The notes below the pieces were generated by a model. That model was not told the DNA's origin. It saw only the letters and a list, made by a program, of their open reading frames with translations, and did not search any database. This document shows, in pieces, positions 13,214-44,885 of a DNA stretch of 64,000 nucleotides (the first letter of the stretch is position 1; each line of letters starts with the position of its first letter). Position numbers and translations under genes: made by a program. Origin of the DNA: an uncultured Gemmatimonadales bacterium (GTDB lineage: Bacteria > Gemmatimonadota > Gemmatimonadetes > Longimicrobiales > RSA9). The stretch spans positions 5,088,001 to 5,152,000 of the forward strand of contig OY970192.1 of the NCBI GenBank assembly GCA_963708135.1. Reading direction: 5' to 3'.

Positions 13214-15586
13214 CTACGCGGGTGGTGGCCTTGGCTCACGAATGTGATGCACGCCTCGCACGCCTGGACTCGCGGGCCGGGCGCGCAGGGGGCGTGGTGG
13301 CGGCGCGGAACGCCGGGTGGCTGCCGCGAGCCGGAGCGCCGCGAACCGCACGTACCTGCGCGCGTCCGCGGGCGCCAGCACCTCCGCCTCGCCCCCGTAC
13401 TGCAGGATGTGACGCGCCAGCCAGTCGAGGTCCGCCAGCGGGTGCCAGGCGACGAGGCCGTCGTCCGGCTCGCGAGTCCCCTCCACCCGCTCGCCGATCC
13501 AGGGCGCCACGCGCGCGGAGTAGCGGACGCGCACGCGCCCGACGCCGGTCCCGCCGAATACGCCGCCTTCCGCGGTGGTGAACGCGGCGAGGTCGAGGTC
13601 GGCCGGCGGGGTGAAGGCCTCGTCGCATGGCTCGGCGCGCAGCACCCGGTCCATGCGAAAGACCCGGCGACCTCGATTGGCATCGTCCGCGAGCACGTAC
13701 CAGTGCCCCTCCGCGAAGAGCAGTCGGTAGGGCGCGATGCGCCGCCAGCCCGGCGCCGCCGCGTCCGGCTTCAGGTACTCGATCCGGCACCAGCGCCGCT
13801 CCCGCGAGGCGGCGGCGACGACCCCATCGAGCATCTCCCCGGCCAGATCGAAGGCGACGGAGCCGCCTCCGTCCTCCGGGGCCGATCCACGATCCCGCGC
13901 CACTCCGTCCACCGGCGCGGCGCCATCGCGTGGCGCCATTCCGCCCTCCGGCACCACTCCCCCGCGCGGCACGGCTCCGCCGTCCGGCGGAACGCGGCGC
14001 CGGGCGAGAAGCCGCTCGAGCGAGGCGGCCAGCGAACGAAGCGCCGTGGCGCGGCCCGGGCCCGTCTGCGCAGCGAGCGCCCGCAGCGCGAGCGACAGCG
14101 CGACCGCTTCCCGAGCCGTCAGCCGCGGCGGCCGCGTGAATTCGCCCGGCGCGTGCACCTCCACGCGCCCATCCTCGATCAGGATCTGCAGGTCTCCCGG
14201 CGCGCCCGGCTCGAGGTAGTACGCGCGGTCCGCCAGCTCCTGGAGGTCGCGCAGCAGCGCGGGCACCGATGCACCGGTCCGCGATGCCAGCTCCGCCAGG
14301 GCGACGCCGCCCGGCCGCCGCGCCCGCGGCAGGATATCGAGGAGCCGCGTGAGGCGGTCGGCCGCCGTCGCGCGGCCGGACCCCCGATCGGCCGGCTCCG
14401 ACCTGGGCTGCAGCCCGTCCGGGCGCGCCGACTCCGGGCGCGCGCTCTCGCGCGACCGCGCCTCGCGCTCCGCCAATGGCGGCCCGGCGTGCGCCCGCGC
14501 GACGCGCAGGGCGAGGCGACGGAGCTCGACGCGAAGGGCGGGCGGCTCCACCACCTCCGCCGCGCCCAGCCACGCGGCCAGCCAGCGCACGAACGGCTCG
14601 GGGCGGCGGACCTCGAAGAGCCGCACCGCCGAGCCGTCCGCCCGCCGCTCCACGAGCTGGCCGTGCCCGCCGCGCGCGGCCAGCAGCGAGGCAGGGTAGT
14701 GGAAGAGGAGGGTGACCGGCAGCGTCGCCTGCGGGGAGCCCAGCTCCCACGCCGAGCGGCCGAGGTACGACTCGATCCGGAAGTCGCGCGGCACCTCGAA
14801 GGCCACGCCATCAGCCTCCGGGCCCGCGGGCACCAGCGCGCGGATCCGGCCAACCCGGAACGTCCGCACCTCGCCCGTCCCGCCGCCGGTCGCGCCCACG
14901 GCGTACCACTGCCCCGCCCGGAAGAACAGCCCGTACGGCGCGAGCACGCGCACTCCCGGCCGGCCGCCCGCGGGCGCTGCGTAGGTGAAGCGAACCGTGC
15001 GCCGGCTGAGGAGCGTCTCGCACAGCGCCGGCATCCACGCCGCCGCCGCGACCGCGTCGGGCGGGGGGACGATGACGGGCGCCCCGTCGCCGCCGTCAAC
15101 CAGCGGCAGATCGAACGTCAGCTTGCGCAGCGCGCCGGCGAGCGGCGCGGCCAGGGGAAAGCCGGGGATGGACTCCGCGCCGGCGAGCGCCCGGGCGACG
15201 GCATCGGCCTCCCGCCGCGGCAGCTCGACCTCCGCCACCGCCGCCCGGCCACCGGGTCGTTCCGTGGCGCCCTCTCCGCCGTTCACGAGACGCAGCACCG
15301 GCAGGTAGAGGTCGCGCCGGTCGAGCACGTAGCCCGCGCTGCCCGCATCGCCCGCGCGCGCCCGATCCTCGACGGTCCGGATCGGGATGCCCGCCTCCCG
15401 CAGCTCGGCCAGGTCGCGCTCGAAGGTCCGCTGCGCGCTGGCCTCCGCCCGGGGCGTCCCGGGCGCGCGGAGGCACCGGTAGCCCGGCAGTGCGTCGAGC
15501 AGCACCTCCGCGGCGACCGGCATCCGGTGTGCGAGGAGGAGCGCGACGAGGTCGAAGAAGCGCTGGAGCTTGGTGGGCGGAGGCAT
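13214..15586 (-). CDS. Fused tandem HTH-WYL-WCX regulator (PafB-PafC-like fusion)
   Basis: Module 1: RTFERDLAELREAGIPI...PYGLFFRAGQWYAVG...RTFRVGRI. Module 2: RLTRLLDILP...LTAREAVAL...PYRLLFAEGHWYVLA...RVFRMDRV...WLARHILQYGGEAEVLAP. Start could be 15595 or 15664. Confidence 0.88.
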   Translation of the reverse strand: MPPPTKLQRFFDLVALLLAHRMPVAAEVLLDALPGYRCLRAPGTPRAEASAQRTFERDLAELREAGIPIRTVEDRARAGDAGSAGYVLDRRDLYLPVLRLVNGGEGATERPGGRAAVAEVELPRREADAVARALAGAESIPGFPLAAPLAGALRKLTFDLPLVDGGDGAPVIVPPPDAVAAAAWMPALCETLLSRRTVRFTYAAPAGGRPGVRVLAPYGLFFRAGQWYAVGATGGGTGEVRTFRVGRIRALVPAGPEADGVAFEVPRDFRIESYLGRSAWELGSPQATLPVTLLFHYPASLLAARGGHGQLVERRADGSAVRLFEVRRPEPFVRWLAAWLGAAEVVEPPALRVELRRLALRVARAHAGPPLAEREARSRESARPESARPDGLQPRSEPADRGSGRATAADRLTRLLDILPRARRPGGVALAELASRTGASVPALLRDLQELADRAYYLEPGAPGDLQILIEDGRVEVHAPGEFTRPPRLTAREAVALSLALRALAAQTGPGRATALRSLAASLERLLARRRVPPDGGAVPRGGVVPEGGMAPRDGAAPVDGVARDRGSAPEDGGGSVAFDLAGEMLDGVVAAASRERRWCRIEYLKPDAAAPGWRRIAPYRLLFAEGHWYVLADDANRGRRVFRMDRVLRAEPCDEAFTPPADLDLAAFTTAEGGVFGGTGVGRVRVRYSARVAPWIGERVEGTREPDDGLVAWHPLADLDWLARHILQYGGEAEVLAPADARRYVRFAALRLAAATRRSAPPPRPLRARPASPGVRGVHHIREPRPPPA

Positions 15587-15713
15587 CGGTGCCATTTCGG
15601 GATGAGGGGCTGGCCGTGCGGGTCCATGGGTATCGCCGGAATGACCGGCGGACAAGGACGACATCGCCGAGCGGGGCGGGTACCCGCCGCTGGCGCTGCC
15701 GTTTCGCGCTCAC

Positions 15714-15735
15714 TGTCGGTGGGTCCTCTTACGTT
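15714..15735 (+). promoter_or_regulatory. PafBC/RecA-NDp-type promoter (TGTCGG-N10-TANNNT) upstream of the cas operon
   Basis: TGTCGG TGGGTCCTCT TA CGT T; exact consensus match, adjacent to the PafBC-like gene. Confidence 0.7.
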
Positions 15736-16142
15736 GTGGAGCGTGGACGGTGAAGCCGCCGGCGGGCGGCGGCGTTGACCGCGGCGACGTCGCCATCGAT
15801 TCTCTTGCGCGGATCCGGAAGCGGGACTACCCTGGGCTGTGGCGCTGGCGTTCGAAAGAAACCGTCGGCGCCGCGTTCCCCGGCCGCGATTCCGCTCTGA
15901 CCCCCTCCGGACGAGTCGATGGCCGCAACCGCCGGTCGCGCCAGCAGTGGCGCGACCGACGCGTGTCCGCCGCCTGCGCTCTGACCAAGGGTTCCGTAGG
16001 TGAACGTCCGACACTGGCCTCTTCGACCTATCGGGCCCGAAGAATGGGCGGGGTAACGCCCTCGGAGGTCCGAAGGAGGGCCGGTGATTTTTCGTGCCGC
16101 TCGACCTCATGAATTCGTTGACCCTGGACATGGAGTGAACCA

Positions 16143-17375
16143 GTGGCCAATGCGCTGACGCACAATGTGCTCACCCGCGCCGTGACGGGTGGCGCCGCGG
16201 CGTTCCGCTGCCGTCGAAGGCTGCAACCTGCCGGTGGGCCTGGAGACAAGGTTTTCCCGCCGACCTTCGCCGGGGCGGTGTACGCCATCGAGCAACGGCG
16301 CCTGCCCGACCGGGAGGCGCCCGTCCAGTGCGTGCTCCTCGATAGCGTACAGAGCCAGGCGAACCGGATGGAGCTGGCGCTGCAGGAGGCGGTGGATTCG
16401 GGCCGCTTGCGGTTGCCGCTCGTGGTGGTCAACTTCTCGGAGCACGATCCGACGGGCGACCTCGAGGCGGACGAAGAGGCAGGCCGATTCCTGGACGCCG
16501 TGGGCAGGATCACGACCCTCCAGGCGCCACACCGCCTCGCCGACGCGATTCTGCGCGACAGCGAGCTCGACGGCGTGCGATTCCGCAAATCCGAGAAGGG
16601 GAAGACCCTGAACCGCGCGAGCCTCGCCAATGCGACGCCGCTCTTCGAGCTCTGTCCGACGGCGCTGGTCTTCGGGATGTGGGATTCGACGGGGCCGAAG
16701 GGTGGCCTGGGCCCGAAGTTCGAGCGTGCGGTGGTCTCGGAGATCGTGGGGATCGGCGCGGAGTGGAAGGACGATTACCGGGCCCGCGGCGTGCGCCGTG
16801 ATCCGCTCGAGATCACGAAGAACGTGATGGTCCTCGCCGACGGCGACCGGGCCCTCAGCAAGGTGGCCGAGGGCAAGGAGAAAGGCGTCCGCCCGTCAGA
16901 GATCAATCACTCGAGCGTCCCGTTCGACTCCCCCAACTCCGGCGTAACGATCGAATACGCCGAGCAGGTGACGACGCTCTCCCTGATCGCGCTCCGACGA
17001 CTCCACTTCCCGATCGATGGCGCCACGACGACCGAAGCAGACGCGTCCGCCCGCACCGTTCTGGCCGCGCTCGGCCTGTGCGCCGCCACCCTCGCATTCG
17101 AGAACGGCGTCGGACTGCGCTCACGTTCGCTGTTGTGGCCGGAGGCCTCCATCACGTGGGAGCTCCTGGAGCGGCCGGGGAAGGAACCCCAACGCTATTC
17201 GCTGGCGTCTGCGGATACGCAGCAGCTGCTGGCCGACGCTGTGGCGGCGGCCCGATCCGCCGGCCTGCCCTGGCCGGAGCAGCCGCTCCTGCTCAAGCCG
17301 TCTGCGGCACTGGTCAACCTGGTGCGCCGCAGCCAGGTCGAGCTCGTCCGCCAGGGCGCGGCGGAGGACGGATAA
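16143..17375 (+). CDS. cas7: Type I-G Cas7 (Csb1/Cas7u)
   Basis: LQPAGGPGDKVFPPTF, LLDSVQSQANRME, APHRLADAILRDS, PTALVFGMWDS, LRSRSLL. Confidence 0.92.
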   Translation: MANALTHNVLTRAVTGGAAAFRCRRRLQPAGGPGDKVFPPTFAGAVYAIEQRRLPDREAPVQCVLLDSVQSQANRMELALQEAVDSGRLRLPLVVVNFSEHDPTGDLEADEEAGRFLDAVGRITTLQAPHRLADAILRDSELDGVRFRKSEKGKTLNRASLANATPLFELCPTALVFGMWDSTGPKGGLGPKFERAVVSEIVGIGAEWKDDYRARGVRRDPLEITKNVMVLADGDRALSKVAEGKEKGVRPSEINHSSVPFDSPNSGVTIEYAEQVTTLSLIALRRLHFPIDGATTTEADASARTVLAALGLCAATLAFENGVGLRSRSLLWPEASITWELLERPGKEPQRYSLASADTQQLLADAVAAARSAGLPWPEQPLLLKPSAALVNLVRRSQVELVRQGAAEDG

Positions 17376-17377
17376 GC

Positions 17378-18961: not shown

Positions 18962-19948
18962 ATGTCTGGACCCGCCGCCACCTGGGACTTCACGGCGCAG
19001 ACCGACCTTTGGACAGGTAGGGTCGTTGGGATCAACGAGCGGAAGGGGAGAGTGGAGCTGCGGGAGAGCATCAAAAACTCGCGGCTGATCCCAACCGGCC
19101 TGCTCGGGTCCATCCGCTGGTGGTTCGAAGTTGTGGTGCGCGGTCTCGGCGGGAACGCATGCGACCCCACCAGGACCAAGTGTCAGGATGGCAAACACTG
19201 CGTCGTCTGCGAGCTGTTCGGTTGCACCGGCTGGGCCCGGAAGTTCCGTTTCCAGGTGCTGGACGGGAATGGAGAGATCCTGGGCTCCGCGATCAAGAAG
19301 GATTCGAAGTTCAAGGTCCGATTCGTACCGCTACGGCCCATCGCCAGCGAGGAAAGGGCGCTGCTCGACCTCACCCTCCGGCTCATCGCCGAGTACGGTG
19401 CGGTCGGTGGGAAGACAGTGCTCAAGCCTTCAGACGAGCCGAACCGCGCGGACGCGCTGCACCATCTCGACTATGGTGTGGTGTCTCTGGACAGCAGCCC
19501 CGGGGTCGCTGTCGGGGACGAGCGAACGCTGAAAGGCTATCTCCGCCAGGTCTCGCAGCGAGCCGCGCACGACACAAGCAATGCCACCTGGGCCTCGCTC
19601 GCGAACTTCTGGTGCGTGAACGGCAGGTACTTGACGCGCGCGAAGGCTGATGCGAGCACATTCAACAGGGTTTTGGGCCGCCAGGAACCCAAGCAGCAAG
19701 CGCAGACGCTTGCGAGCAACGGAAACGCAGATCGCTGGCTCGCCGGCTCACAGCAGGAGAGCAAGAAGGTCTTCAGCTTCAAGAATCCGCCCCGGACGTT
19801 CGGCTTCGTGCTGCCGGGGACGATTTCACTCGACGAGATGAAGACGCGGCTGCAGCCAGCCTGGTCGGACCTCCGGGATGGCGAGTTCCTCACCGGCGCG
19901 GATGTCCTGTCGAAGCTCGTTCCCGCGGCATCGGAGCCCGCTCGATGA
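18962..19948 (+). CDS. cmr1: Type III RAMP Cmr1-like
   Basis: TDLWTG, TGLLGSIRWWFEVVVRGLGG, CxxCELFGCTGWARKFRF, YGAVGGK. Confidence 0.8.
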   Translation: MSGPAATWDFTAQTDLWTGRVVGINERKGRVELRESIKNSRLIPTGLLGSIRWWFEVVVRGLGGNACDPTRTKCQDGKHCVVCELFGCTGWARKFRFQVLDGNGEILGSAIKKDSKFKVRFVPLRPIASEERALLDLTLRLIAEYGAVGGKTVLKPSDEPNRADALHHLDYGVVSLDSSPGVAVGDERTLKGYLRQVSQRAAHDTSNATWASLANFWCVNGRYLTRAKADASTFNRVLGRQEPKQQAQTLASNGNADRWLAGSQQESKKVFSFKNPPRTFGFVLPGTISLDEMKTRLQPAWSDLRDGEFLTGADVLSKLVPAASEPAR

Positions 19949-20859
19949 CCTTCGATCACTACGCCGCCTTGGCGGACCAGCGGACGTGCCCGCGCTCAGT
20001 GTCGAAGCCGGGCGGGTTCGCGTCCGGGTTCGTGGACGGCTGCACCGTATGGTCGGGAACGGAAGCGGAGAAGAACAACGCGCGGCGTTGCTACCTCAAA
20101 CATCTGGATGGCGCCGCTTCGCTCGCGCCCCCCCCGGAGCTGAAGCTCGCTTCCGATTTCACCGCGCTCCCCGCCCCGGGCTGGATCGGGATCGAGGTCG
20201 ACTTCAAGCTCGAAACGCCGTGGTATTCCAGGGATGACCGGCGCTTCCACGTTTTGGACAACCCGGTGCGTAAGGACCGCGTCTTCGGCGTGCCCTTCAT
20301 GGCGGCGGCGAGCTGGAAGGGACTCCTCCGCTGGGCCTGCAGGATGCGTGCGGGTCTGCTCGAGCACCTGGCGTCGCAGGGCGGCAAGCTGGCCGGGTGG
20401 GACGAGCCCGAGTGGATCGTGCACCTGCTCGGCAACGAGAAGGGTGAAGGCGAGTCGTTCCAGCGTGGTGCGTTGGCGTTTTACCCGACGTGGTTCGACC
20501 GGCTCGGCTTTGAGGTCATCAACCCGCACAGCCGCCGGACGCGGGCGGGCACGCAGCCCATCCACTACGAGGTCGTACCGCCGGGCGCGACCGGCGTCCT
20601 GCAGCTACTGTACGCACCGTTCGTCGGCCGAACCGCCCAACCTGCCGGTCACGGGCTGATTGATCTGATCGGCTCCATCGAGGACCTGCTCGAAACGTAC
20701 GGCATCTCGGCCAAGCGCACGGCAGGTTGGGGCACGGCGACCGCCACCGCGTGGAAAGCGTTCCGGGTTGGAGAGCCCGGAATCCAAGCGGAGAACGCGT
20801 CGGACCTCGCGCGGCAATTGGAGCCCTGGCTGGAATCAACGGAGCGCGGCTATGGCTGA
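19945..20859 (+). CDS. cmr6: Type III RAMP Cmr6-like
   Basis: PWYSRDD..F..LDNPVRKDRVFGVP, SWKGLLR, EVINPHSR, YGISAKRTAGWG. Confidence 0.8.
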   Translation: MTFDHYAALADQRTCPRSVSKPGGFASGFVDGCTVWSGTEAEKNNARRCYLKHLDGAASLAPPPELKLASDFTALPAPGWIGIEVDFKLETPWYSRDDRRFHVLDNPVRKDRVFGVPFMAAASWKGLLRWACRMRAGLLEHLASQGGKLAGWDEPEWIVHLLGNEKGEGESFQRGALAFYPTWFDRLGFEVINPHSRRTRAGTQPIHYEVVPPGATGVLQLLYAPFVGRTAQPAGHGLIDLIGSIEDLLETYGISAKRTAGWGTATATAWKAFRVGEPGIQAENASDLARQLEPWLESTERGYG

Positions 20860-23581
20860 GTTTGCGCCCGCCGCGACACTCCGCGACCACCGCTCGCTGC
20901 TCTTGTCCATGGAGGCTGTGGGGTGGCTGCACATGACCGGCAAGTGCCGCCTGGCGTTCCTGCGCGAGCACGGCGGACAGGGGTCGGGCTACGACGACCT
21001 CCGCTGGTTCGAGAACGAGAGCCCGCCGTTCCCGTGGGACGAACTGCTGGGCTGGCTCAGGACGCGGTACGCGAACGCAAACGGCACTGCGCTCCCGTGG
21101 CCGGGCACGCTCACCGGTTTCCTGACTCGGCACCGGGGTCGGAACGCGGGACTCCTAGGTCTGCTGCAGGCGGGCCATGGCATTGCCTCCGGCATCGAGA
21201 AGAACATGCCTGCCGCGGCAGCGAAATATCTCCAGCAGGATGCCACGCACATGTGGCTCTCCTCGGCCTTCGGACGCCCGGTGCGCAATCTGCTCGCGGA
21301 TCCGCCCGGGTCGTTGAGCCAGGCAGGCTGGGCGCGGTTGCTCGAGGAGATGCAGCGCATCCTACGAGACCTCCATCAGCTCGGCTCCGCATCCGCCACG
21401 GATCTCGGCTCGTGGTCAACCTGGCGCGAAGATGCCATCGGCGCCGGGAGCGTCCTCCGGCACGCGTTCGGCTCCACGCTCGCGGAAACCCGCCTCCCGA
21501 ACAATGAGGTCACGCTCTGGGATCAGTCCTACGTCGCCGCGGCGCTGTTCAAGAGCGCCCTGGCCAGTGCCCTGCTCGACGGTAGGTCCTTCCCCTGGAA
21601 TGACGCGGCAATCAAGAGCCAAGTCCGCTGGCGGCTGCTGACGGTCGGGATCGGAGCGGATCACTTCGAAGCGCGGGCCGTGCGCATCGGCGACTGGACT
21701 GGGGCACGGCTGGCGCTCGACCGCTTCTTCGGAGGCGTGCGACGACTCGTCGAAGTCGACCTGGCGGTGGGCTCGTTGCTCTACGCCGACGGCGGCGTAC
21801 TCGTGTTCTCGTTTCCTGGCGAGCGCACTGATGGCGCTGGCGCTGTGGATGCATCCGGGTGGACGGATTGGCTGCAGGAGGCCGTGGACCAGTCCGCGCG
21901 CGGGCTCGCGCTCGAGCTGCCGCCGTATGTGCGCCTGACCGAATCGACGCGCTCGCTGGTCCCGATGACGCGGGAGATCGCGAACGCGCGAAGCGTTCTC
22001 ACCATTCCCGTGCACCGCGCGTGGGACGTCACCGGATCCGGCGAGACCGGCCACGTGTGTCCCGTGTGCCTCGTGCGCCTGAACGGCGCGCCCACCGACA
22101 AGCAGAAGCCGTGCGCCACCTGCCGCGAGCGCCGAACCCACCGGCTCGATGCCTGGCTCGGGGGCGAGCAAGGGGACGACACGATCTGGATCAGCGAGGT
22201 GGCGGACCAGAACGACCGTCTCGCCCTCCTTACGCTGAGTCTCAATATTGAGCCGTGGCTGGACGGCAGTCGGCTGGATGCGCTGCGTACCCAGGCAGTG
22301 TCCGAATGGCGCCGTCACAACCCGACGCTCGGAGGGAGCTCCAACCCGATTGATTCCGCTAAGCCGTTTGCAAGCCTCGCTGCATACATACAGGGGACCC
22401 TCGGAAGCTTCGACGCGAACAATCCGGTGCTCAGGAGTCTGCAGGAAGGCTATCAGCACGACACCGGCTGGGAGACGTTCTTCCAGAAGGTGGTCGAGGA
22501 CCGCGCGGACGCGCCTCTCTGGAACTCCCTGGATGACCATGGCAGGGCCCGCTGGCTCCTGCATCAGCTCTTCTGCAAGCTCGCCTCTCCTGGTCGCGTT
22601 CACCGCTTCTGGCGGCAGGCGGAGGGCTTCTTCGCCAACCTGCTGGCCGAATTCCGGCAACTAGCAGCGGCGGACGCGAACCGCTGCCGCGTGCGGCGGC
22701 TCGTGCTGACGCCCGGCGCAGACGGCGACCTCTCCGTGTGGCGAGACCGCGAGGTCTACAACGGCCGGGTCGGCGAAGCGCCGCTCAGCCTCCTCTACCG
22801 TGGCCAGAGCCAAGACTTCCTCACGGTCTGCAACCTGGCGCGCCTGCTGCGTGCGGAGGAGGACGGCGAGGCGCTGGTCCGGCGCTCGCAGGAAGGGATC
22901 GAGCTCCGCGGCGGCGACAGCGACCTGCCGGTCAGGTTCCGGATCGCGAGTGTGGAGCCCGCAGATGGCCGAGCCGGCGTCTACCATCCAGTCATCCCCC
23001 TGGAACTGAGCCCGTTGCGCTTCCGGGTGCTGCTTCCGCTCTCCGCAGCGTCGGCCTGCGTCGAGTGCGCGATCGGCATCTGGAACGACGAGATGGCCCG
23101 CGTCTGGGACCGTCTCCCCCTCCGCGCCGGCATCGTTGCCTTTCCACGCACGGTGCCGTTCCAGGCGGTGATCGAGGCTGCCCGCTCCCTCGAGCATGCT
23201 CTGGAAGAGCAGCCGGCGGAGGAGACGTGGCGCGTCACCGAGCGTGACGCCCGCGACGGGATCGTCGCGTTCCGACTCGTTCGTCGCGACGGCGGATCCG
23301 AGCTCCGCTCGATGCCGGTCACGTTACCGGACGGCCGGCGCGATGTGTTCTACCCGTACTGCCGCGTCGAGGATGGGGCAGTGCGCACCGCGCTCGACTT
23401 CCAGCATCCGGACGGCCAGACCTTTCGCCACGCGCTCGACCTGCGCCCTGGCGACGGCATCGTCGTGGCGCCGTCCCGCATCGCCGGTGTCTTTCTCGAC
23501 AGTAGCGCGCGCCGCTTCGACGAGGTGCAGGTGCGCCCGCTGGCGGAGTGGACGCGGATGCGCTGGTGGGCAGAGCCGTGA
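20852..23581 (+). CDS. cas10: Type III-C Cas10 (Csx11), C-terminally truncated
   Basis: AETRLPNNEVTLWDQS, CPVC...CATC zinc motif, IWISEVADQN, ASPGRVHRFW, DLRPGDGI..PSR. Ends abruptly inside cmr4 sequence. Confidence 0.8.
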   Translation: MAEFAPAATLRDHRSLLLSMEAVGWLHMTGKCRLAFLREHGGQGSGYDDLRWFENESPPFPWDELLGWLRTRYANANGTALPWPGTLTGFLTRHRGRNAGLLGLLQAGHGIASGIEKNMPAAAAKYLQQDATHMWLSSAFGRPVRNLLADPPGSLSQAGWARLLEEMQRILRDLHQLGSASATDLGSWSTWREDAIGAGSVLRHAFGSTLAETRLPNNEVTLWDQSYVAAALFKSALASALLDGRSFPWNDAAIKSQVRWRLLTVGIGADHFEARAVRIGDWTGARLALDRFFGGVRRLVEVDLAVGSLLYADGGVLVFSFPGERTDGAGAVDASGWTDWLQEAVDQSARGLALELPPYVRLTESTRSLVPMTREIANARSVLTIPVHRAWDVTGSGETGHVCPVCLVRLNGAPTDKQKPCATCRERRTHRLDAWLGGEQGDDTIWISEVADQNDRLALLTLSLNIEPWLDGSRLDALRTQAVSEWRRHNPTLGGSSNPIDSAKPFASLAAYIQGTLGSFDANNPVLRSLQEGYQHDTGWETFFQKVVEDRADAPLWNSLDDHGRARWLLHQLFCKLASPGRVHRFWRQAEGFFANLLAEFRQLAAADANRCRVRRLVLTPGADGDLSVWRDREVYNGRVGEAPLSLLYRGQSQDFLTVCNLARLLRAEEDGEALVRRSQEGIELRGGDSDLPVRFRIASVEPADGRAGVYHPVIPLELSPLRFRVLLPLSAASACVECAIGIWNDEMARVWDRLPLRAGIVAFPRTVPFQAVIEAARSLEHALEEQPAEETWRVTERDARDGIVAFRLVRRDGGSELRSMPVTLPDGRRDVFYPYCRVEDGAVRTALDFQHPDGQTFRHALDLRPGDGIVVAPSRIAGVFLDSSARRFDEVQVRPLAEWTRMRWWAEP

Positions 23582-24290
23582 CGGCGGCGGACACTGCGGT
23601 GAGCCGGACTGTCCGATCTGCACGGTTTTCGGCTTCGCCCGTGGCAACAGCGGCGGCTTCGCCGGGTTGGCGGCATTCAGCGACGCGCACGTGCTCCTGT
23701 TTCCGGTCGCCACGCGGGAGGGGCCCGTGTGGATCACCTGCCCGGGCGCGCTGCGCGGCCTGAGCGCGCTGAGCGAGCTGCCCGATATCAGCGAGAACGC
23801 AGTCCTCCGCGCTGGCAACGCCACAGGCTCGTTGAACCTCGGCTGGCTCGTCCTCCCCGTGAAAGGCCGGAACGGCGAGTGGGCGAGCGTGGATACCGAG
23901 CTCGGTGCGCTCGGTGTACCGGATCACGTTAAGCGGACCTGGGCGATCATCTCCGACAAGGTCTTCTCGCACGTCGTGAACAGCAATCTGGAGGTCCGCA
24001 CTTCGGTCTCGATCGACCCCGAGACCGGTGCCGCGGAGGGAGGTGCGCTCTTCACCTATGAAGCCCTCCCGCGCGGGACGGTGCTCGTGTGGCAGGTCAC
24101 GTGCCGGCACCCCGGGCATTTCCGGGTCGGAAAGAGCGACGTGAGTGCCGTTGCCGATGCAGGGGTGGTTCATAGCGTCGTCGGCGAAGGGCACGGCTAT
24201 CTCGAATTCCTGGGCATCGGCGGGATGGGCACCCGTGGCATGGGGCGCTTACGGGTCCTGAATGCTGCGGCAGGCGAGGGAGGCACGTGA
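23556..24290 (+). pseudogene. cmr4: Cmr4 RAMP lacking its N-terminus
   Basis: CAG...HCGEPDCPICTVFGF, DAHVLLFPV, NLEVRTSVSIDPETGAAEGGALFTYEALPRG, GIGGMGTRGMGR; no start codon or N-terminal motifs. Confidence 0.8.
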
Positions 24291-24655
24291 TGGAGAACCT
24301 GGACCTCAGGTGCGCGGAGCTCGGCGCGACGCTCGCGGGTGCCCACGGCGTGGAGGAGAAAACCCTGACGGACGCGCTGGCGGTTCTTGAGGAGCAGGGC
24401 GTCTATGCCTTCTTCCTCTACCTGAGCGCGCCCGGAAGAAATGGCGGAGGTGAGGTGTCCCGAGCGTGCCATAAGTTCCTGCAGCAGGAGCCCAGCGACA
24501 AGGCGCTCCTGCCTGCGGGCGGCGATGTCCTCAGGAGCGTCCGCGAATCGCTCGCGAACGAGCTCGACAACCTGCTCCTCGCGAGGGACCTGTTGCGCCA
24601 GGCTCTGGTCTACGGCCGCTATCACGCCAAGGCCGAATCCCGGGGTATCCGGTGA
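24287..24655 (+). CDS. cmr5: Type III small subunit Cmr5 (Cas11)
   Basis: NLDLRCA, ALAVLEEQGVYAFFLYL, LLRQALVYGRYHAKA; position between cmr4 and cmr3. Confidence 0.75.
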   Translation: MMENLDLRCAELGATLAGAHGVEEKTLTDALAVLEEQGVYAFFLYLSAPGRNGGGEVSRACHKFLQQEPSDKALLPAGGDVLRSVRESLANELDNLLLARDLLRQALVYGRYHAKAESRGIR

Positions 24656-25530
24656 TTTGGAAGCTGTACCGTTGGGTTTGGCAGCTCGAAGGGCCCCTGT
24701 ACGTGGGTATGGCGCCCGCTGGCGTGCTGAACCGGTGTCGGCTCTACGCGCCTGCCCGTGCGGTGTGGGGCGCGCTCACCTCTGAGCTAGCCCGCACAAC
24801 GGCGACGGGTTTTCCCGAATACGAGGGCGTTGGCAGAATGCTTCAGGAGAGCGCACGCTTCACGTACCTCTTTCCGGCCGAGCCGGTCGAGGGTGATTGG
24901 CGAGGCTGGCTTCCACACTATGCCACCGAACACGGGCTCGAGTGGAGACGCGAGGACCTGCCGAATGACCCCGGCAAGAGAGTGCCGGACCGCACGTTTC
25001 GCCGCCGGCTGCTCGACACCCGTGCAGGGACCGCAATCGAGCCGGAGACAGACACTGCCGCCGATGGCAGTTTGAGAGAAACGGAGTGCTTGGGCGCCAT
25101 GTGGCGGCGGAACGGAGCCGGAGGGGAGCCGTCTCCGGCTGCGCTCGTGGGCTATGTCTTTCTGCGTGACGGCGATGGTCGGTTGCGCGTTGAAGCGATC
25201 GATACACTCTTCCTGGGTGGAGACACGCGCTACGGGCTTGGGCGGGTTCGCCTGGTTGAGTGCGACGTGGCGAATGGGGTTTTCGGAAATGAGACGAGGG
25301 TCTCAGCGGGCACACCCGCGATCGTCAGCGCGGCCGTCCTGGCGCACGCTTCGAGCGGTGAGGATCTCATTGGTGCGTTGGAGCGGGTGGCAGGATGGGA
25401 TCGACTGAAGGCGAGCAGGGTCACTCATTTGAGTAGCTCGGTCGCGTGGACGCCTGGTTCCAGTTGTCGCCACGGCGAACGGAGAATTTGGCGGGTGCGG
25501 GGTGACGGAATCTGGCAGCCAGGACAGTAG
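24652..25530 (+). CDS. cmr3: Type III Cas5-group RAMP Cmr3
   Basis: PLYVG, RLYAPARAVWGALT, TAIEPETDTAADGSLRETE, LGGDTRYGLG. Confidence 0.75.
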   Translation: MIWKLYRWVWQLEGPLYVGMAPAGVLNRCRLYAPARAVWGALTSELARTTATGFPEYEGVGRMLQESARFTYLFPAEPVEGDWRGWLPHYATEHGLEWRREDLPNDPGKRVPDRTFRRRLLDTRAGTAIEPETDTAADGSLRETECLGAMWRRNGAGGEPSPAALVGYVFLRDGDGRLRVEAIDTLFLGGDTRYGLGRVRLVECDVANGVFGNETRVSAGTPAIVSAAVLAHASSGEDLIGALERVAGWDRLKASRVTHLSSSVAWTPGSSCRHGERRIWRVRGDGIWQPGQ

Positions 25531-26007: not shown

Positions 26008-26425
26008 AGATGTCAGGCGCGAGTTCGTCCGGGATTGGATCGACAAGGCCGAACGGGATCTCGGCGCCGCTCGGCACCTGCTTTCCGGGATGGAATGGCT
26101 GGCGGCGGGCGCGGCGTTTCACGCGCAGCAAGCGGCCGAAAAATACCTGAAGGGCTTTCTGGTCTGGCATCAGGTCGAGTTCCCGAAGACCCACGACATC
26201 GCGCGCCTGCTCGAGCTGATCGGAGCGGTAGATCGGCAGCTTGCGGCATCGCTGCCCAATGCCACAAGTCTGAGCGCGTACGGAGTGGATTACCGGTATC
26301 CGGGTGATTACCCCGAGGTGTCAGCGGCGCAGGCCCGCCAGTGTGTCGAAGTCGCGAGCGCCGTTCGGGAAAAGGTGCTTGGTCAGCTCCCACGCCTAAC
26401 GGCTGAGGAGGAAGAAAGCCGGTGA
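25994..26425 (+). CDS. HEPN domain protein (MNT-HEPN pair)
   Basis: WIDKAERDL, FHAQQAAEKYLKG, PKTHDI, YRYPG. Confidence 0.9.
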   Translation: MKPPEDVRREFVRDWIDKAERDLGAARHLLSGMEWLAAGAAFHAQQAAEKYLKGFLVWHQVEFPKTHDIARLLELIGAVDRQLAASLPNATSLSAYGVDYRYPGDYPEVSAAQARQCVEVASAVREKVLGQLPRLTAEEEESR

Positions 26426-29361
26426 CCCCACTCCCCTCCTTCCCCGACTTCTTCCGCGCCCTCTGGACCTACGACCCGTTCCCGTGGCAGTCCATGCTCG
26501 CGGAACGCGTTGCCGCCGGCGCATGGCCGGCCGCGCTCGACCTGCCCACGGCGAGCGGCAAGACGGCGTGCATCGAGATCGCGCTCTACGCGCTCGCGGC
26601 GCAGGCGGAGCAGCCGACCGCCGAGCGCACGGCGCCGCGGCGCGTCTGGTTCGTGGTGGACCGGCGCATCGTCGTGGACGAGGCGTTCGATCGCGCGACG
26701 CGGCTCGCCGGGAAGCTGGCGGACGCCACGAGCGGGTCCCTGAAGAGCGTCGCCGATCGGCTGCGGGAGGTTGCAGGAACGGAGCGGCCCGTGGCGGTGG
26801 CGCGGCTTCGGGGCGGGGTGTTCCGCGACGACGGATGGGCGCGGCTGCCGTCGCAGCCGGCGATCATCACGTCGACCGTGGACCAGCTCGGCTCGCGGCT
26901 CCTCTTCCGCGGTTACGGCCACGGGCTGCTCGCGGCGCCGATCTACGCCGGCCTGGCCGCGAACGACAGCCTGATTCTGCTCGACGAGGCGCACTGCTCG
27001 GTGCCGTTCCTCCAGACGCTGCGCGCGGTCGAGCGCTTCCGGGGCCCGGACTGGGCCGAGGCCCCGCTGGTCACGCCGTTCGCCTTCGCGATCCTGTCCG
27101 CGACGCCTCCCCCGGACATCCCGGCCGAGTCGGTCTTCCCCGGCGCGGATCGCGCTGCGGCGCTGGATCACGACGTGCTGCGCCAGCGGCTCCGCGCCTC
27201 CAAGCCTGCCGAGCTCGTCGTTGTGAAGGCGAAGAGAGGCGCCGCCGCGGATCCGTTGATCGCCGCGGCGATCGAGCGTGCGCTGGGCCACGTCGGGGAG
27301 GGAAAGCGCCGGATCGCGGTGATGGTGAACCGCGTCCGCACCGCCCGCGATGTCGCCGAGGGGCTCGAGGACACGCTCGGCGGGGATGCCCATGTTGTAC
27401 TCCTCACCGGCCGCCTACGTCCCTTCGACCGCGATGCGCTCGTCGAACGGTGGACCCCGTTCCTGAAGGCGGACAGGCCGGAATCGGCGGCCAAGCCGAT
27501 CGTGCTGGTCTCGACCCAGTGCCTCGAGGTCGGTGCGGACTTCAGCTTCGACGCGCTGGTCACCGAAGCCGCGAGTCTGGATGCGCTGCGGCAGCGCTTC
27601 GGCCGTCTCGACCGGATGGGCACGGCCGGAACTTCGCCCGCCAGCATCCTCGTGCGTGAGCGAGATGCGGAACCCGGGAAGGCGGAGCCGGACCCGATCT
27701 ACGGCGCCGCGATCGCGAACACGTGGACGCTGCTCGAGGCGCACGCGGTCGATGGCAGAGTCGACTTCGGAGTCGAGCCGCTGGAGGCGATGCTCGGCGG
27801 CCTCGAGGACCTGGGCCCCTGCCTCGCGCCCGCGCCTGAGGCGCCGGTGCTGCTGCCGGCGCACCTCGACCTGCTGTGCCAGACCGCGCCGGCCCCGGTG
27901 CCCGAACCGGACGTGCAGCTCTTCCTGCACGGGAAGGATCGCGGGGCGCCGGAGGTTCAGGTCACCTGGCGCGCGGACCTGGACCCGGAGCAGCCGGCGA
28001 GCGTCTGGATCGAGACCGTCGCCCTGTGTCCTCCCGTCAGCGGCGAGATGCTGTCGGTGCCGCTGTACCAGCTTCGCGCTTCCCTGGGCCACGGCGAAAC
28101 AGCGCCGGACACTGGCGACGTCGAGGGTGTTCCGGCCCCGGATGAAGCCGCAGCCCGGGGCGCCCGACCGTTCCTCCTCTGGCGCGGGCGCGGCCGTGAT
28201 CGGTCCCGTCGGACGCGTGATACGCGGCTGATCCGTCCCGGGGATGTCGTCGTCATTCCGGGATCGTACGGCGTGGGCACGCTCGGGCAGCCGCCCGTCA
28301 AGGAAGGAATCGGGCCGGACGGAATCGACCTCTGGGAGCGCGTCCTGGGGCCGGCGGGCCAGCGGTCCGCCATGCGTCTCACGCGTGCGACGCTCGCGCG
28401 CTGGTTGGGCTGGCGGCCGGTGGCGGACCTGCTCGTCGCGGTCGAGGATCCCGAGCCGGACCGGGATGAGATCGCAGCGCGAATCGCCGCGGTGGTCGCT
28501 GACCAGCCCGGGGGCGGCGAGGATGTTGCCGCGGCCCCCCCGCAATGGTGGCGCGAGCTGCTGCGGACCGTCCTGGCCGGCCGCCTGGAGGTGCACCCCG
28601 GGGGTGGGATCATCCTGTTCGCCCGCGCCAGGCCGAAACGCACCGAGGAGCCCGACCTCTTCGCGGATGACGATGACCTTGCGTCGGCGACCGGGGTCGA
28701 GGTACCGCATGACCTCCACGCCGATCTCGTCGCGCGGACCGCCGGAAGAACCGCGCGGCTGTGTCTCCCGGAAGCGCACGTTGCCGCACTGGAAAGGGCC
28801 GCGGACTGGCACGACACGGGCAAGCTCGACGAGCGTTTCCAGGTCATGCTCCACCAGGGAGATGAGCTGGCTGCGCTGCAGGCAACGGCCCCCCTCGCCA
28901 AGTCCGCGTGGATTCCCACATCTCCGGCGCACCGCCGGGAGATCCGGGAAGCCGCGCGGCTCCCCGACGGTTTTCGGCACGAGATGCTGTCCTTGGACCT
29001 CGCAGACCGGTTCGCGCCAGGGCTCGAGGGTGAGCACACGACGGACCTGTTGCTGCACCTCGTCGCGAGTCACCACGGACATGCCCGTCCCTTCGCGCCG
29101 GTCGTCTCGGACCCTGATCCGCCTCCGGTGATGGGCACGCGGCGCGATGTCGCCTTCGAGCTGAAGGCCGCCGAGCGCCGCGATCTGCCGCCCGCGCACC
29201 GGCTGGACTCCGGCGTGGCAGACCGGTTCTGGCGCCTCGTTCGGCAGCACGGGTGGTGGGGCCTCGCCTATCTCGAAGCCATTCTCCGGCTGAGCGATTG
29301 GTACGCGAGCGAGTTCGTTCCTGCTGAGCTGAAGGCTTCGGGCGAGGAGGAGGCCGCGTGA
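26422..29361 (+). CDS. cas3: Type I-G Cas3 helicase with C-terminal HD nuclease
   Basis: PFPWQ, PTASGKT, VVDRR, DEAH, QRFGRLDR, HDTGK, FRHE, HHG, GWWGLAYLEAILRLSD. Confidence 0.95.
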   Translation: MTPLPSFPDFFRALWTYDPFPWQSMLAERVAAGAWPAALDLPTASGKTACIEIALYALAAQAEQPTAERTAPRRVWFVVDRRIVVDEAFDRATRLAGKLADATSGSLKSVADRLREVAGTERPVAVARLRGGVFRDDGWARLPSQPAIITSTVDQLGSRLLFRGYGHGLLAAPIYAGLAANDSLILLDEAHCSVPFLQTLRAVERFRGPDWAEAPLVTPFAFAILSATPPPDIPAESVFPGADRAAALDHDVLRQRLRASKPAELVVVKAKRGAAADPLIAAAIERALGHVGEGKRRIAVMVNRVRTARDVAEGLEDTLGGDAHVVLLTGRLRPFDRDALVERWTPFLKADRPESAAKPIVLVSTQCLEVGADFSFDALVTEAASLDALRQRFGRLDRMGTAGTSPASILVRERDAEPGKAEPDPIYGAAIANTWTLLEAHAVDGRVDFGVEPLEAMLGGLEDLGPCLAPAPEAPVLLPAHLDLLCQTAPAPVPEPDVQLFLHGKDRGAPEVQVTWRADLDPEQPASVWIETVALCPPVSGEMLSVPLYQLRASLGHGETAPDTGDVEGVPAPDEAAARGARPFLLWRGRGRDRSRRTRDTRLIRPGDVVVIPGSYGVGTLGQPPVKEGIGPDGIDLWERVLGPAGQRSAMRLTRATLARWLGWRPVADLLVAVEDPEPDRDEIAARIAAVVADQPGGGEDVAAAPPQWWRELLRTVLAGRLEVHPGGGIILFARARPKRTEEPDLFADDDDLASATGVEVPHDLHADLVARTAGRTARLCLPEAHVAALERAADWHDTGKLDERFQVMLHQGDELAALQATAPLAKSAWIPTSPAHRREIREAARLPDGFRHEMLSLDLADRFAPGLEGEHTTDLLLHLVASHHGHARPFAPVVSDPDPPPVMGTRRDVAFELKAAERRDLPPAHRLDSGVADRFWRLVRQHGWWGLAYLEAILRLSDWYASEFVPAELKASGEEEAA

Positions 29362-32503: not shown

Positions 32504-32556
32504 AGGGGCGGCGCGCGGCGCGCCCGAAGCCTTGGTGGGCAGGTGCCGCGGCTCAC

Positions 32557-32578
32557 CGTCGGTGGGTCCTTTTACATT
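32557..32578 (+). promoter_or_regulatory. Second copy of the PafBC-type promoter (1 mismatch)
   Basis: CGTCGG TGGGTCCTTT TA CAT T within a diverged duplicate of 15707-16140. Confidence 0.55.
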
Positions 32579-33007
32579 GTAGAGCATGCACGATGAACCG
32601 TCGGCGGGCGGCGGCGTGGCCGCGGCGAGGTCGCCATCGATTCTCTTGCGCGGATCCGGAACCGAGACTACCCTGGGCTGTGGCGCCGGCGTTCGGAACA
32701 ACCGTCCGCGCCGCGCCCCCCCGGCCGCGATTCCGCTCCGACCCCCTCCGGACGAGTCGCTGGCCGCAACCGTCGGTCGCGCCAGCAGTGGCGCGGCCGG
32801 CGCGTGTCCGCCGCCTACGGTCCGAGCAAGAGTTCCGGGGGTGTAGGTCCGACGATGGACTGTCTCGAGCATTCCGGCGCGAACAGTGGTACGGCGTACG
32901 GGCACCGGTTGGCGGAACGCCAGCGGGAGGCGGTCCACGATTTTCGCGCGGGAACGTCGATCGCTTGATCGCCGGGATTTGTTGACCCCTGGAGAAGGAG
33001 AGAACCA

Positions 33008-44697: not shown

Positions 44698-44885
44698 GCC
44701 GGTCCGGCCCCTCGTGCGAGCGGCCCCGTTGTTTGAAAATCCGGGTAACCGCTCGAAGGTGTTGTCCCATGCGACGTTCCACGCTCCTCGAACCCGGTGC
44801 GCCGACCGCTTCCCGCGCCGATCCGAGGGCCCACTCGCTTTCGGGCCCGCAGGTCGGCTCGTGGCAGCAGGTTGGAACCACCGGC
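44698..44885 (+). promoter_or_regulatory. CRISPR leader
   Basis: Non-coding, between cas2 and the first repeat; the degenerate repeats lie at the opposite end. Confidence 0.75.

What the first reader, a model, noticed from the sequence alone, without database searches (positions are those of the whole stretch)
13214..16143. PafBC-like WYL fusion plus an exact RecA-NDp promoter pointing at the CRISPR-Cas operon
Seen: a fused double HTH-WYL-WCX gene is divergent from cas7. At 15714-15735 on the cas strand lies TGTCGG-tgggtcctct-TA-cgt-T, and the motif is retained with one mismatch at the very start of the duplicated block (32557-32578). Known: mycobacterial PafBC is a nucleic-acid-activated, LexA/RecA-independent DNA-damage activator that recognises TGTCGG-N10-TA-N3-T (RecA-NDp, tTGTCRgtg-N8-TAnnnT) by sigma adaptation. 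All 9 fixed positions and the gtg extension match here. Defence-linked WYL proteins I know (BrxR, CapW, Sll7009) are repressors. Inference: a dedicated PafBC-type activator switches on a type I-G/III-C locus on sensing DNA damage or phage ssDNA, in a probably non-actinobacterial host. I am not aware of this being described.
Basis: partly seen in the sequence, partly recalled or inferred. Interest (0 to 1): 0.9.

Follow-up and report, generated by a model that had tools for sequence, protein, structure and literature searches.

The report
PafBC-like regulator beside CRISPR-Cas promoter
A fused two-part DNA-damage-sensor regulator of the mycobacterial PafBC type sits next to a CRISPR-Cas operon in a Gemmatimonadota genome, and the operon's only promoter-like element has the special PafBC layout, so this immune system may be switched on by single-stranded DNA.

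Summary
P0001 (13214-15664, minus strand; probable start near 15595) is a fused PafB-PafC-like protein. Its best solved relative is Arthrobacter PafBC. The two GTC-reading arginines of PafB and the WYL ssDNA-binding arginines are conserved.

The motif TGTCGGTG-N8-TACGTT lies at 15714-15735 on the cas strand. It is followed by a 407-nt non-coding leader and a cas7g-csb2-type III-cas3g operon. No -35/-10 promoter was found there, although this genome clearly uses TTGAC.-N17/18-TAnnnT elsewhere. The host has no Pup ligase and its relatives are Gemmatimonadota.

New comparative evidence comes from spacing scans. TGTCNN-N10-TAnnnT is enriched upstream of PafB-like genes (14 at spacer 10, 0-2 at other spacers; 87 loci). 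It is also enriched upstream of cas7g homologues (6 versus 0-1; 75 loci).

Evidence against:
- No other PafBC-like gene examined neighbours cas genes.
- One relative (G026) has the motif at cas7g but no WYL gene.
- G000 has no wider regulon.
- There are no expression data.

Precedents exist: DdaA is a WYL activator of CRISPR-Cas, and a pafBC operon has been noted in Myxococcus.

Verdict: a plausible ssDNA-triggered activator of CRISPR-Cas working by sigma adaptation. It is a new variant of a known kind and remains unproven.

The parts
13214..15664 (-). Fused PafB-PafC-like regulator (P0001, 816-aa ORF). The probable true start is M24/M27 near 15595. The PafB-like half covers about residues 24-395 and the PafC-like half about 433-785. 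The linkers are disordered.
   Evidence: Pfam gives WYL x2, WCX x2 and HTH_PafC. Sequence matches are 6SJ9 PafBC at E 1.4e-22 and 7P5X PafC at 5.9e-14. The N-terminal HTH matches M. smegmatis PafB at E 6.5e-5 with R46/R50 kept. The Foldseek top hit is 6SJ9 at E 1.4e-29. Residues 1-24 have pLDDT below 50.
15714..15721 (+). Candidate -26 element TGTCGGTG, containing the GTC triplet
   Evidence: consensus from PMC8635444
15730..15735 (+). Candidate -10 hexamer TACGTT (TAnnnT), exactly 10 nt after TGTCGG
   Evidence: TAnnnT is this genome's housekeeping -10, shown by TTGAC.-N17/18-TAnnnT enrichment.
15736..16142 (+). Non-coding 5' leader of the cas operon. It includes a weak terminator-like hairpin at 16067-16092.
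   Evidence: GC is flat across the three codon positions at 0.63-0.71, against GC3 of 0.86-0.90 in genes. It is 84-94% identical to copy B over 15738-15986.
16143..17375 (+). cas7g (Csb1)
   Evidence: PF09617 at 3.3e-55; TIGR02570
17381..18955 (+). csb2 (cas5/6 of type I-G). The ORF is open from 17078 and the start is approximate.
   Evidence: TIGR02165 at 1.8e-80, matching from residue 102 of the ORF
18962..25530 (+). Type III effector module, in the order Cmr1-like, RAMP, Csx11-family large subunit, Cmr4-like, 122-aa ORF, 292-aa ORF. The genes abut or overlap.
   Evidence: TIGR01894, TIGR02682 (1e-65, below its cut-off), TIGR02580 and RAMPs; ORF coordinates
26422..30503 (+). cas3g (26422-29361) and the type I-G Cas3-extension gene (29358-30503)
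   Evidence: TIGR02621 at 2.6e-212; NF049934 at 7.4e-71
32551..33007 (+). Copy B of the promoter and leader. The motif CGTCGGTGGGTCCTTTTACATT lies at 32557-32578.
33008..36928 (+). Decayed second I-G block: a truncated csb2 (33008-34030) and a second cas3g (34238-36928)
   Evidence: Downstream, cas8g2 is split by an IS630 transposase, and there are an IS1182 transposase, another csb2 fragment and cas4g/cas1g.
44884..52399 (.). Three CRISPR arrays (44884-47758, 49203-50337, 51778-52399) sharing one repeat of about 36 nt

Best explanation
P0001 is a single-chain PafB-PafC heterodimer analogue. In the proposed mechanism, the housekeeping RNA polymerase cannot use the cas promoter on its own. The promoter has a normal -10 (TACGTT) but no -35. 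In place of a -35 it carries a TGTCGG element 10 nt upstream of the -10.

When ssDNA binds the WYL domains, from DNA damage, phage replication or nuclease action, the PafB-like HTH reads the GTC triplet through R79/R83. The PafC-like HTH replaces the sigma region-4/-35 contact. This is sigma adaptation. Transcription then starts near 15742 and runs through a 400-nt leader into cas7g-csb2-type III module(-cas3g).

Shown here: the family membership of the protein, conservation of the DNA-reading and ssDNA-binding residues, the exact promoter architecture, and recurrence of that architecture at PafB-like and cas7g genes in other non-actinobacterial genomes.

Inferred: that the site is a promoter, that it is activated rather than repressed, that the neighbouring fusion is the factor acting there, and that ssDNA is the signal.
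For: Protein:
- It has two WYL-WCX modules plus an HTH_PafC domain.
- Its best solved relatives are PafBC structures: 6SJ9 at E 1.4e-22 by sequence and 1.4e-29 by Foldseek over 775 columns, followed by 9FND PafC/PafB and then DriD, CapW and BrxR.
- M. smegmatis PafB R46/R50, which read the GTC guanines (PMC8635444), align to P0001 R79/R83. These residues are invariant in 11 of 11 fused relatives.
- Among the ssDNA-binding residues, PafB R181, Y196, R208, R211 and R214 are kept and R204 is not. PafC R201/R204 are kept (residue roles from PMC11804915).

Promoter:
- The match is exact and is expected 1e-4 to 1e-3 times by chance in this intergenic region.
- No sigma-70-type promoter was found on either strand of 15500-16250.
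- The genome itself shows TTGAC.-N17/18-TAnnnT 104 and 75 times, against 3-17 at the other spacers from 12 to 22.
- No palindrome or direct repeat occurs in 15540-15800.
- The duplicated unit begins 6 nt before the motif.

Comparative evidence:
- Upstream of PafB-like genes (87 loci, 39 kb, same strand), TGTCNN-Nx-TAnnnT occurs 14 times at x=10. At x=6-9 and 11-15 the counts are 0, 2, 1, 0, 0, 1, 0, 0, 2.
- Upstream of cas7g homologues (75 of 80 metagenome loci, 28.8 kb), it occurs 6 times at x=10, against 0, 0, 0, 1, 1, 0, 0, 0, 0.
- Whole-locus controls give 39 at x=10 versus 6-15, and 19 versus 5-13.
- In L089 a PafB-like gene is divergent from an AddB-like nuclease gene. The strict motif ends 10 nt before that gene's ATG.
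Against: - No TSS or expression data exist, because no RNA run was listed.
- No relative of the window's cas proteins lies in any of the 108 stored loci, which include the PafBC-like loci. No homologue of the leader was found in 72 family genomes. Conservation at an orthologous locus therefore could not be tested.
- G026 (99% complete, 140 contigs) has TGTCAGAG-N8-TACATT 73-94 nt upstream of its cas7g, yet no WYL or PafBC-like gene by three searches.
- G000 shows no spacer-10 excess genome-wide: 27 sites versus 15-28 at other spacers. Its recA and AddB-like genes lack the motif. The system therefore differs from the mycobacterial regulon.
- Two RNAP contacts described for M. smegmatis are not kept in the alignments. 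PafB wing W70 aligns to Gly, and PafC D62 aligns to Ile (roles).
- The three sigma-70-family candidates of G000 all score below the RpoD cut-off.
- The related loci are kin, so the counts overstate independence. Two of the 14 hits (L011, L016) come from genomes flagged unpublished (G019, G016).
Confidence: 0.45

Rival explanations
1. The site is a PafBC-type promoter, but it belongs to a shared regulon. It would be served by the split PafB/PafC pair at G000 481.9-484.5 kb, or by both paralogues. On this view the adjacency of the fusion gene is not a dedicated one-gene/one-operon circuit.
For: G000 encodes a second PafB+PafC-like pair, 39-40% identical to the two halves of P0001. Motif-bearing cas7g promoters occur in loci with no adjacent PafBC-like gene: 6 of 75 metagenome loci, where only single-WYL genes lie nearby in 5 of 80. 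G327 has a motif at cas7g and its PafB/PafC pair elsewhere in the genome.
Against: A divergent regulator-target arrangement is the commonest signature of local control. G000 has almost no other good sites. The split pair's own upstream region has only a degenerate version, TGTCGGTC-N8-CAGGTT.
Confidence: 0.2
2. The fusion acts differently, as a repressor or dual regulator like BrxR, CapW or Sll7009, or on other targets. The TGTC/-10 element would then be used by RNAP with some other factor, or constitutively.
For: G026 keeps the element at cas7g without any detectable WYL gene. The RNAP-contact residues W70 and D62 are not conserved. Single HTH-WYL-WCX genes of the defence-island type lie near cas7g in 5 of 80 metagenome loci.
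Against: There is no palindromic operator in the intergenic region. The protein has the heterodimer-type architecture with a PafC-type HTH, which in PafBC does not bind DNA (PMC8635444). Its closest structures are PafBC, not CapW or BrxR. The exact N10 spacing recurs at PafB-like genes.
Confidence: 0.2
3. The motif is a chance match, and the real cas promoter lies elsewhere in the 547-nt intergenic region.
For: The strict motif occurs about as often genome-wide as composition predicts, 2 sites, one clearly non-functional. GC-rich genomes yield many weak look-alikes.
Against: The local expectation is 1e-4 to 1e-3. The motif is retained at the start of the duplicated unit. No alternative promoter was found. 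Related loci show spacing-specific recurrence.
Confidence: 0.1

Closest known systems
PafBC of Mycobacterium smegmatis / Arthrobacter aurescens (PDB 7P5X, 9FND, 6SJ9)
   Same: Both have two HTH-WYL-WCX modules, naturally fused as in A. aurescens. The PafB HTH arginines that read GTC are kept, as are the WYL arginines for ssDNA and the PafC-type HTH. The target motif tGTCgg(N10)tA(N3)T, without a -35, is the same.
   Different: The host is a Gemmatimonadota genome without a Pup ligase. The gene is not in a pafA/proteasome locus. No large DNA-repair regulon is seen and recA lacks the motif. The target is a CRISPR-Cas operon. W70 and D62 are not conserved. Identity is only about 23-26%.
DdaA of Acinetobacter/Moraxellaceae (PMC12392091)
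   Same: It is a WYL-family activator that raises CRISPR-Cas (I-F) and RM expression on DNA damage. The biological logic is the same.
   Different: According to that paper, DdaA has a DriD-like three-helix bundle, and its site lies about 50 bp upstream of the TSS. [quoted passage not shown] It is a global regulator, not a neighbour of cas.
SiwR of M. smegmatis (PMC10693628)
   Same: It is a WYL activator that responds to genotoxic stress, controls the adjacent operon and depends on a -26 region.
   Different: It is a homodimer with an imperfect palindromic site and a GGA triplet at -26. Its targets are DinB-like genes.
BrxR / CapW / defence-island WYL regulators (PMC9122601, PMC9122588, PMC11662680)
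   Same: They are WYL-WCX regulators encoded beside defence systems, and ssDNA sensing has been shown for CapW.
   Different: They are single-module proteins, described as repressors in the CapW paper's title and abstract. That they are homodimers on palindromic operators is recalled, not read here. They rank below PafBC and DriD in the fold search. No palindrome is present here.
pafBC operon of Myxococcus xanthus (PMC9705874)
   Same: It is a non-actinobacterial PafB/PafC pair. The authors report PafBC-binding sequences in the promoters of 24 of 51 UV-induced genes.
   Different: It is a split pair in a DNA-damage context with no link to CRISPR-Cas. No mechanism was tested.

Membership tests
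PafBC | Two non-identical HTH-WYL-WCX modules acting as a heterodimer (or natural fusion) | tested here: met
   WYL x2, WCX x2 and two HTH regions in one 816-aa ORF. 6SJ9 aligns over both halves.
PafBC | PafB HTH recognition arginines R46/R50 that read the GTC triplet | tested here: met
   They align to P0001 R79/R83 and are invariant in 11 of 11 fused relatives. Roles are from PMC8635444.
PafBC | PafC-type HTH domain | tested here: met
   PF19187 HTH_PafC, E 2.5e-17, residues 436-550
PafBC | WYL-domain arginines needed for ssDNA binding (PafB R211/R214 and others; PafC R201/R204) | tested here: met
   P0001 R270/R273, R239, Y254 and R267 are kept; the R204 equivalent is Thr. In the PafC half R670/R673 are kept (PMC11804915).
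PafBC | Target promoter tGTCgg(N10)tA(N3)T with a canonical -10 and no -35 | tested here: met
   Exact match at 15714-15735. No -35/-10 promoter in the region. This is sequence-level evidence only.
PafBC | RNAP contacts: PafB wing W70 into the sigma domain 3/beta-flap pocket; PafC D62 (Asp/Glu) to SigA domain 4 | tested here: not met
   W70 aligns to Gly and D62 aligns to Ile. These are pairwise HMMER alignments in loop regions, so the weight is low. The host sigma differs too.
PafBC | Encoded in the Pup-proteasome gene locus of an actinobacterium | tested here: not met
   No PF03136 Pup ligase in the complete genome; the control rings only in Corynebacterium. Nearest relatives are Gemmatimonadota MAGs. 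The neighbours are cas genes.
PafBC | Controls a large DNA-damage regulon including recA | tested here: not met
   2 strict and 27 relaxed sites in 5.45 Mb, with no spacer-10 excess. The recA upstream region lacks the motif.
PafBC | ssDNA-dependent transcription activation with RNAP holoenzyme | not testable with these tools
   Needs in vitro transcription or genetics.
Defence-island WYL repressors (BrxR/CapW type) | Single HTH-WYL-WCX homodimer binding a palindromic operator | tested here: not met
   The architecture is a double module. No inverted repeat occurs in 15540-15800. CapW and BrxR rank 16-23 in Foldseek, behind PafBC and DriD.
Type I-G CRISPR-Cas | cas7g, csb2, cas3g, cas8g, cas4g/cas1g and CRISPR arrays | tested here: met
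   TIGR02570, TIGR02165, TIGR02621, NF049934, NF049935 and TIGR04106; arrays. cas8g2 was found only in two pieces on either side of an IS630 transposase gene.

The most novel reading that the evidence does not exclude
Sigma adaptation by PafBC-type heterodimers would not be an actinobacterial speciality. It would be a cross-phylum mechanism. In Gemmatimonadota and related uncultured lineages, its -26/-10 hybrid promoters would wire type I-G CRISPR-Cas operons, AddB-like repair nucleases and the pafB-like genes themselves to ssDNA sensing. This genome would have evolved a dedicated fused paralogue that keeps a hybrid I-G/type III immune operon silent until ssDNA appears.
Probability: 0.3. Interest if true: 0.8.

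Novelty: new variant of a known kind. Interest (0 to 1): 0.6.

Why it matters
How CRISPR-Cas operons are switched on is known for few systems. PafBC-type sigma adaptation has been described only in actinobacteria, where it controls DNA repair. A PafBC-like fusion placed head-to-head with a cas operon that carries the exact hybrid promoter gives a directly testable case of immunity induced by ssDNA. The spacing-specific recurrence of the motif at pafB-like and cas7g genes suggests the mechanism is wider than thought. It also adds an activator-type WYL circuit to a field dominated by repressors, alongside DdaA.

Tried and rejected
- RNA evidence: no RNA holder was listed for 15000-17500.
- Rfam: no family reached the gathering score in the window.
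- Leader as a structured RNA: RNAalifold on the two copies gave 108 pairs, none broken, but that structure is fitted to both sequences. With the structure taken from copy A alone, copy B's changes break 14 of 20 affected pairs. This idea is not supported.
- Leader as a coding region: rejected. Codon-position GC is flat, and the indels between the copies shift the frame.
- Orthologous loci: P0001 alone found nothing in genome contigs. The leader DNA gave only short GC-rich chance matches in 72 family genomes. The promoter pattern gave 0 hits in metagenome contigs. The nearest proteins among 1.84 billion representatives are at most 40% identical for the fused forms. The search for homologous proteins gave one hit.
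- Searching the metagenome records behind L207, L188 and others for PafBC-like genes was not possible.
- A wider regulon in G000: 27 relaxed sites were inspected, with no DNA-repair theme.
- Complex prediction was not run. G000 has three sigma-70-family candidates, none over the RpoD cut-off, so the partner was ambiguous. A pass would also have leaned on the solved 7P5X/9FND structures.
- The AlphaFold model has mean pLDDT 65.8 and pTM 0.45. Its domains are usable but the overall arrangement is not, hence the low TM-scores.
- The search of earlier findings returned nothing.
- A shuffle simulation timed out and was replaced by the analytic estimate.

Full report
**Observation**

The sequence is as described. 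Window 15714-15735 (+) reads TGTCGG TGGGTCCTCT TA CGT T. A pattern search for TGTCRGTG-N8-TANNNT found this site with 0 mismatches and 32557-32578 (CGTCGG...TACATT) with 1 mismatch. Shuffles of the window gave a mean of 0.32 such sites.

With the composition of the 547-nt intergenic stretch, the strict motif is expected 9.7e-5 times on one strand. The published form TGTCGG-N10-TAN3T is expected 1.1e-3 times. In the whole 5.45-Mb genome (G000, one contig, 72% G+C) the strict motif occurs twice. The second copy lies antisense within what I read by eye as ribosomal protein genes S8/S14, so it looks like chance.

The two promoter/leader copies align from 15708/32551 onward, 6 nt before the motif.

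**The regulator**

ORF 13214-15664 (-) gives P0001, 816 aa. Relatives align from residue 24-31, and residues 1-24 are modelled as disordered. The start is therefore probably M24/M27, near 15595.

- Pfam finds two WYL domains, two WCX domains and HTH_PafC.
- By sequence, the best solved relatives are the natural PafBC fusion of Arthrobacter aurescens (6SJ9, E 1.4e-22) and M. smegmatis PafC (7P5X, 5.9e-14).
- The N-terminal HTH alone matches M. smegmatis PafB (7p5x_AY, E 6.5e-5).
- An AlphaFold model (mean pLDDT 65.8, pTM 0.45) finds 6SJ9 first in Foldseek (E 1.4e-29, 775 columns). Next come 9FND PafC/PafB, then DriD, CapW and BrxR.

I read passages of three papers to learn which residues matter: PMC8635444, PMC11804915 and PMC6789036.

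- PafB R46/R50 read the guanines of the GTC triplet. They align to P0001 R79/R83 and are invariant in an alignment of 11 fused relatives.
- PafB R181, Y196, R208, R211 and R214, and PafC R201/R204, which bind ssDNA, are kept. PafB R204 is Thr.
- Two RNAP contacts are not kept in these alignments. PafB W70 aligns to Gly and PafC D62 aligns to Ile.

**The host**

The nearest relatives of the protein lie in MAGs titled Gemmatimonadota or Gemmatimonadaceae. More distant ones are in Myxococcota, Acidobacteriota and Actinomycetota. G000 has no Pup ligase; the control rings only in Corynebacterium. It has recA and two lexA genes.

PafB/PafC-like genes are common in the host's family, matching in 25 of 36 other genomes. 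G000 itself has a second, split pair at 481.9-484.5 kb. That pair lies next to a 1895-aa DUF4011/AAA/MTES_1575 helicase-nuclease and an SNF2-SWIM protein.

**The target operon**

Downstream of the motif comes a 407-nt stretch with no codon-position G+C bias: 0.63-0.71 in all frames, against GC3 of 0.86-0.90 in genes. The genes that follow are:

- cas7g (16143-17375) and csb2;
- a type III module (Cmr1-like, RAMP, Csx11-family, Cmr4-like and two small ORFs), with abutting or overlapping genes to 25530;
- cas3g and its extension gene.

Copy B of the promoter and leader heads a decayed block. It holds a truncated csb2, a second cas3g, cas8g2 split by IS630, an IS1182 transposase, another csb2 fragment and cas4g/cas1g. 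Three CRISPR arrays follow.

**Is it a promoter of the PafBC class?**

The consensus scan found no -35/-10 promoter on either strand of 15500-16250. No inverted or direct repeat occurs in 15540-15800.

As a control for the method and for the host's RNA polymerase, I counted TTGAC.-Nx-TAnnnT genome-wide. It occurs 104 and 75 times at x=17 and 18, against 3-17 at the other spacers from 12 to 22. This organism therefore uses canonical promoters with a TAnnnT -10. The cas promoter combines that -10 with a TGTCGG element at the -26 position and no -35. That is the hybrid layout described for PafBC (PMC8635444).

**Comparative tests**

No orthologous locus exists in what I could search:

- The closest fused proteins are at most 40% identical.
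- The leader has no homologue in 72 family genomes.
- The promoter pattern is absent from metagenome contigs.
- None of the 108 stored loci, which include the PafBC-like loci, holds a relative of the window's cas proteins.

The motif class, however, recurs with the right spacing.

Upstream of PafB-like genes:
- I used 87 loci. Of 108 loci searched, 89 had an N-terminal match. I dropped L031 and L032 as duplicates.
- The upstream regions total 39,061 nt, scanned on the same strand.
- TGTCNN-Nx-TAnnnT occurs 14 times at x=10. At x=6-9 and 11-15 the counts are 0, 2, 1, 0, 0, 1, 0, 0, 2.
- All 14 hits are in loci of the host's order or in MAGs titled Gemmatimonadota, Gemmatimonadaceae or Longimicrobiales.
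- Two of the 14 (L011, L016) come from genomes flagged unpublished (G019, G016). L004 (G015) is also in the set.

Upstream of cas7g homologues from metagenomes:
- 75 of 80 loci were usable, giving 28,821 nt.
- The motif occurs 6 times at x=10, against 0, 0, 0, 1, 1, 0, 0, 0, 0 at the other spacers.

Whole-locus counts on both strands show the same excess: 39 versus 6-15, and 19 versus 5-13. G000 as a whole shows none: 27 versus 15-28.

In L089 a PafB-like gene is divergent from a 1051-aa gene with a PD-(D/E)XK domain, which I read as AddB-like. The strict motif TGTCAGTG-N8-TATTGT ends 10 nt before that gene's ATG. Relatives of that protein flank PafBC-like genes in five further loci.

**Evidence against**

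- G026 (same family, 99% complete, 140 contigs) has TGTCAGAG-N8-TACATT 73-94 nt upstream of a cas7g that is 59% identical. No WYL or PafBC-like gene was found there with P0001, PF13280 or the A2 profile.
- G134 (cas7g 75% identical) has neither the motif nor a WYL gene. G327 has both a motif and a PafB/PafC pair. G225 and G316 have a pair and only TGTCAC elements with a non-TA -10. These numbers are too small for a test.
- recA and the AddB-like gene of G000 lack the motif.
- No RNA run was listed.
- The loci counted above are kin, so the enrichments overstate independence.

**Mechanism proposed**

I propose an ssDNA-activated, single-chain PafBC analogue that lets the housekeeping holoenzyme start at about 15742 and transcribe the leader and the cas operon. 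I put this at 0.45.

The rivals are:
- the promoter is served by the split paralogue or by both (0.2);
- the fusion works as a repressor or through another mode, and the element is used otherwise (0.2);
- the motif is a chance match (0.1).

**Prior knowledge**

- DdaA, a WYL activator in Moraxellaceae, raises CRISPR-Cas I-F and RM expression on DNA damage. [quoted passage not shown]
- SiwR is a local WYL activator that needs a -26 region (PMC10693628, passages).
- A pafBC operon, and PafBC-binding sequences in UV-induced promoters, were reported for Myxococcus xanthus (PMC9705874, passages).
- No paper in the library holds both 'PafBC' and 'Gemmatimonad'. The 10 papers holding 'sigma adaptation' and 'CRISPR' are the PafBC, DriD, DdaA, SiwR, CapW and c-di-GMP/c-di-AMP WYL papers. 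By their titles and abstracts, none concerns a PafBC-type promoter at a cas operon.
- Subscription journals and bioRxiv supplements were not searched.

**Verdict**

This is a new variant of a known kind. Interest is 0.6.

Noticed in passing
window 15738-15986 vs 32581-32830: The first 250-340 nt of the non-coding leader are 84-94% identical between the two copies. The duplicated coding DNA around them is only 77-79% identical (18003-18909 vs 33087-33993; 25383-26046 vs 41681-42303). The cause could be selection on the leader or gene conversion. A conserved RNA fold was not supported.
   Followed up: partly
window 25383-26046 and 41681-42303: A duplicated stretch of about 660 nt (78.6% identity) lies between cas genes in both blocks. 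No family was assigned; the ORFs on the minus strand gave no NCBIfam hit.
   Followed up: partly
window 36705-41706: The second type I-G block is decayed. cas8g2 is split by an IS630 transposase gene (37373-38461, minus strand). An IS1182 transposase gene lies at 39103-40473 and an extra csb2 C-terminal fragment at 40492-41706.
   Followed up: partly
G000:C1:474000-492000 (L002): The split PafB/PafC paralogue lies beside a 1895-aa DUF4011-AAA_11/12-MTES_1575 helicase-nuclease, an SNF2-SWIM protein, a zinc-ribbon protein and an HNH protein. This looks like a second defence-like or repair-like island with its own PafBC-type pair.
   Followed up: partly
L089:3274-3305 and loci L048, L051, L046, L040, L039: AddB-like PD-(D/E)XK nuclease genes repeatedly flank PafBC-like genes in Gemmatimonadota MAGs. 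In L089 the strict motif ends 10 nt before the ATG, which suggests a nearly leaderless mRNA.
   Followed up: partly
L162 (G225), L165 (G316), L018, L027, L200, L237, L244: An extended form, TGTC[AG]NACCCC, recurs upstream of both cas7g genes and PafB-like genes. It may be a sub-class of the -26 element.
   Followed up: no
window 31870-32503: A FitA/VapB-like ribbon-helix-helix antitoxin ORF, followed by a 155-aa ORF, sits between the first cas block and promoter copy B.
   Followed up: no
window 4682-5001: A tandem repeat of a 61-nt unit, 5.2 copies at 97% identity. It is unrelated to the CRISPR repeat.
   Followed up: no
G000:C1:985346-986053, 4668003-4668710, 4648429-4649145: Three sigma-70-family genes encode ORFs of 302-359 aa. 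All score below the RpoD_Cterm cut-off, so the primary sigma of this lineage is short or atypical. Even so, canonical -35/-10 spacing is strongly enriched in the genome.
   Followed up: partly
L179:3064-4146, L228:283-1278 and L225, L239, L248: Single HTH-WYL-WCX genes of the defence-island type lie near cas7g in 5 of 80 metagenomic type I-G loci, upstream of it in the four loci where positions were compared. In L179 the gene sits beside a PRiA4_ORF3-like gene and a RES-domain gene.
   Followed up: partly
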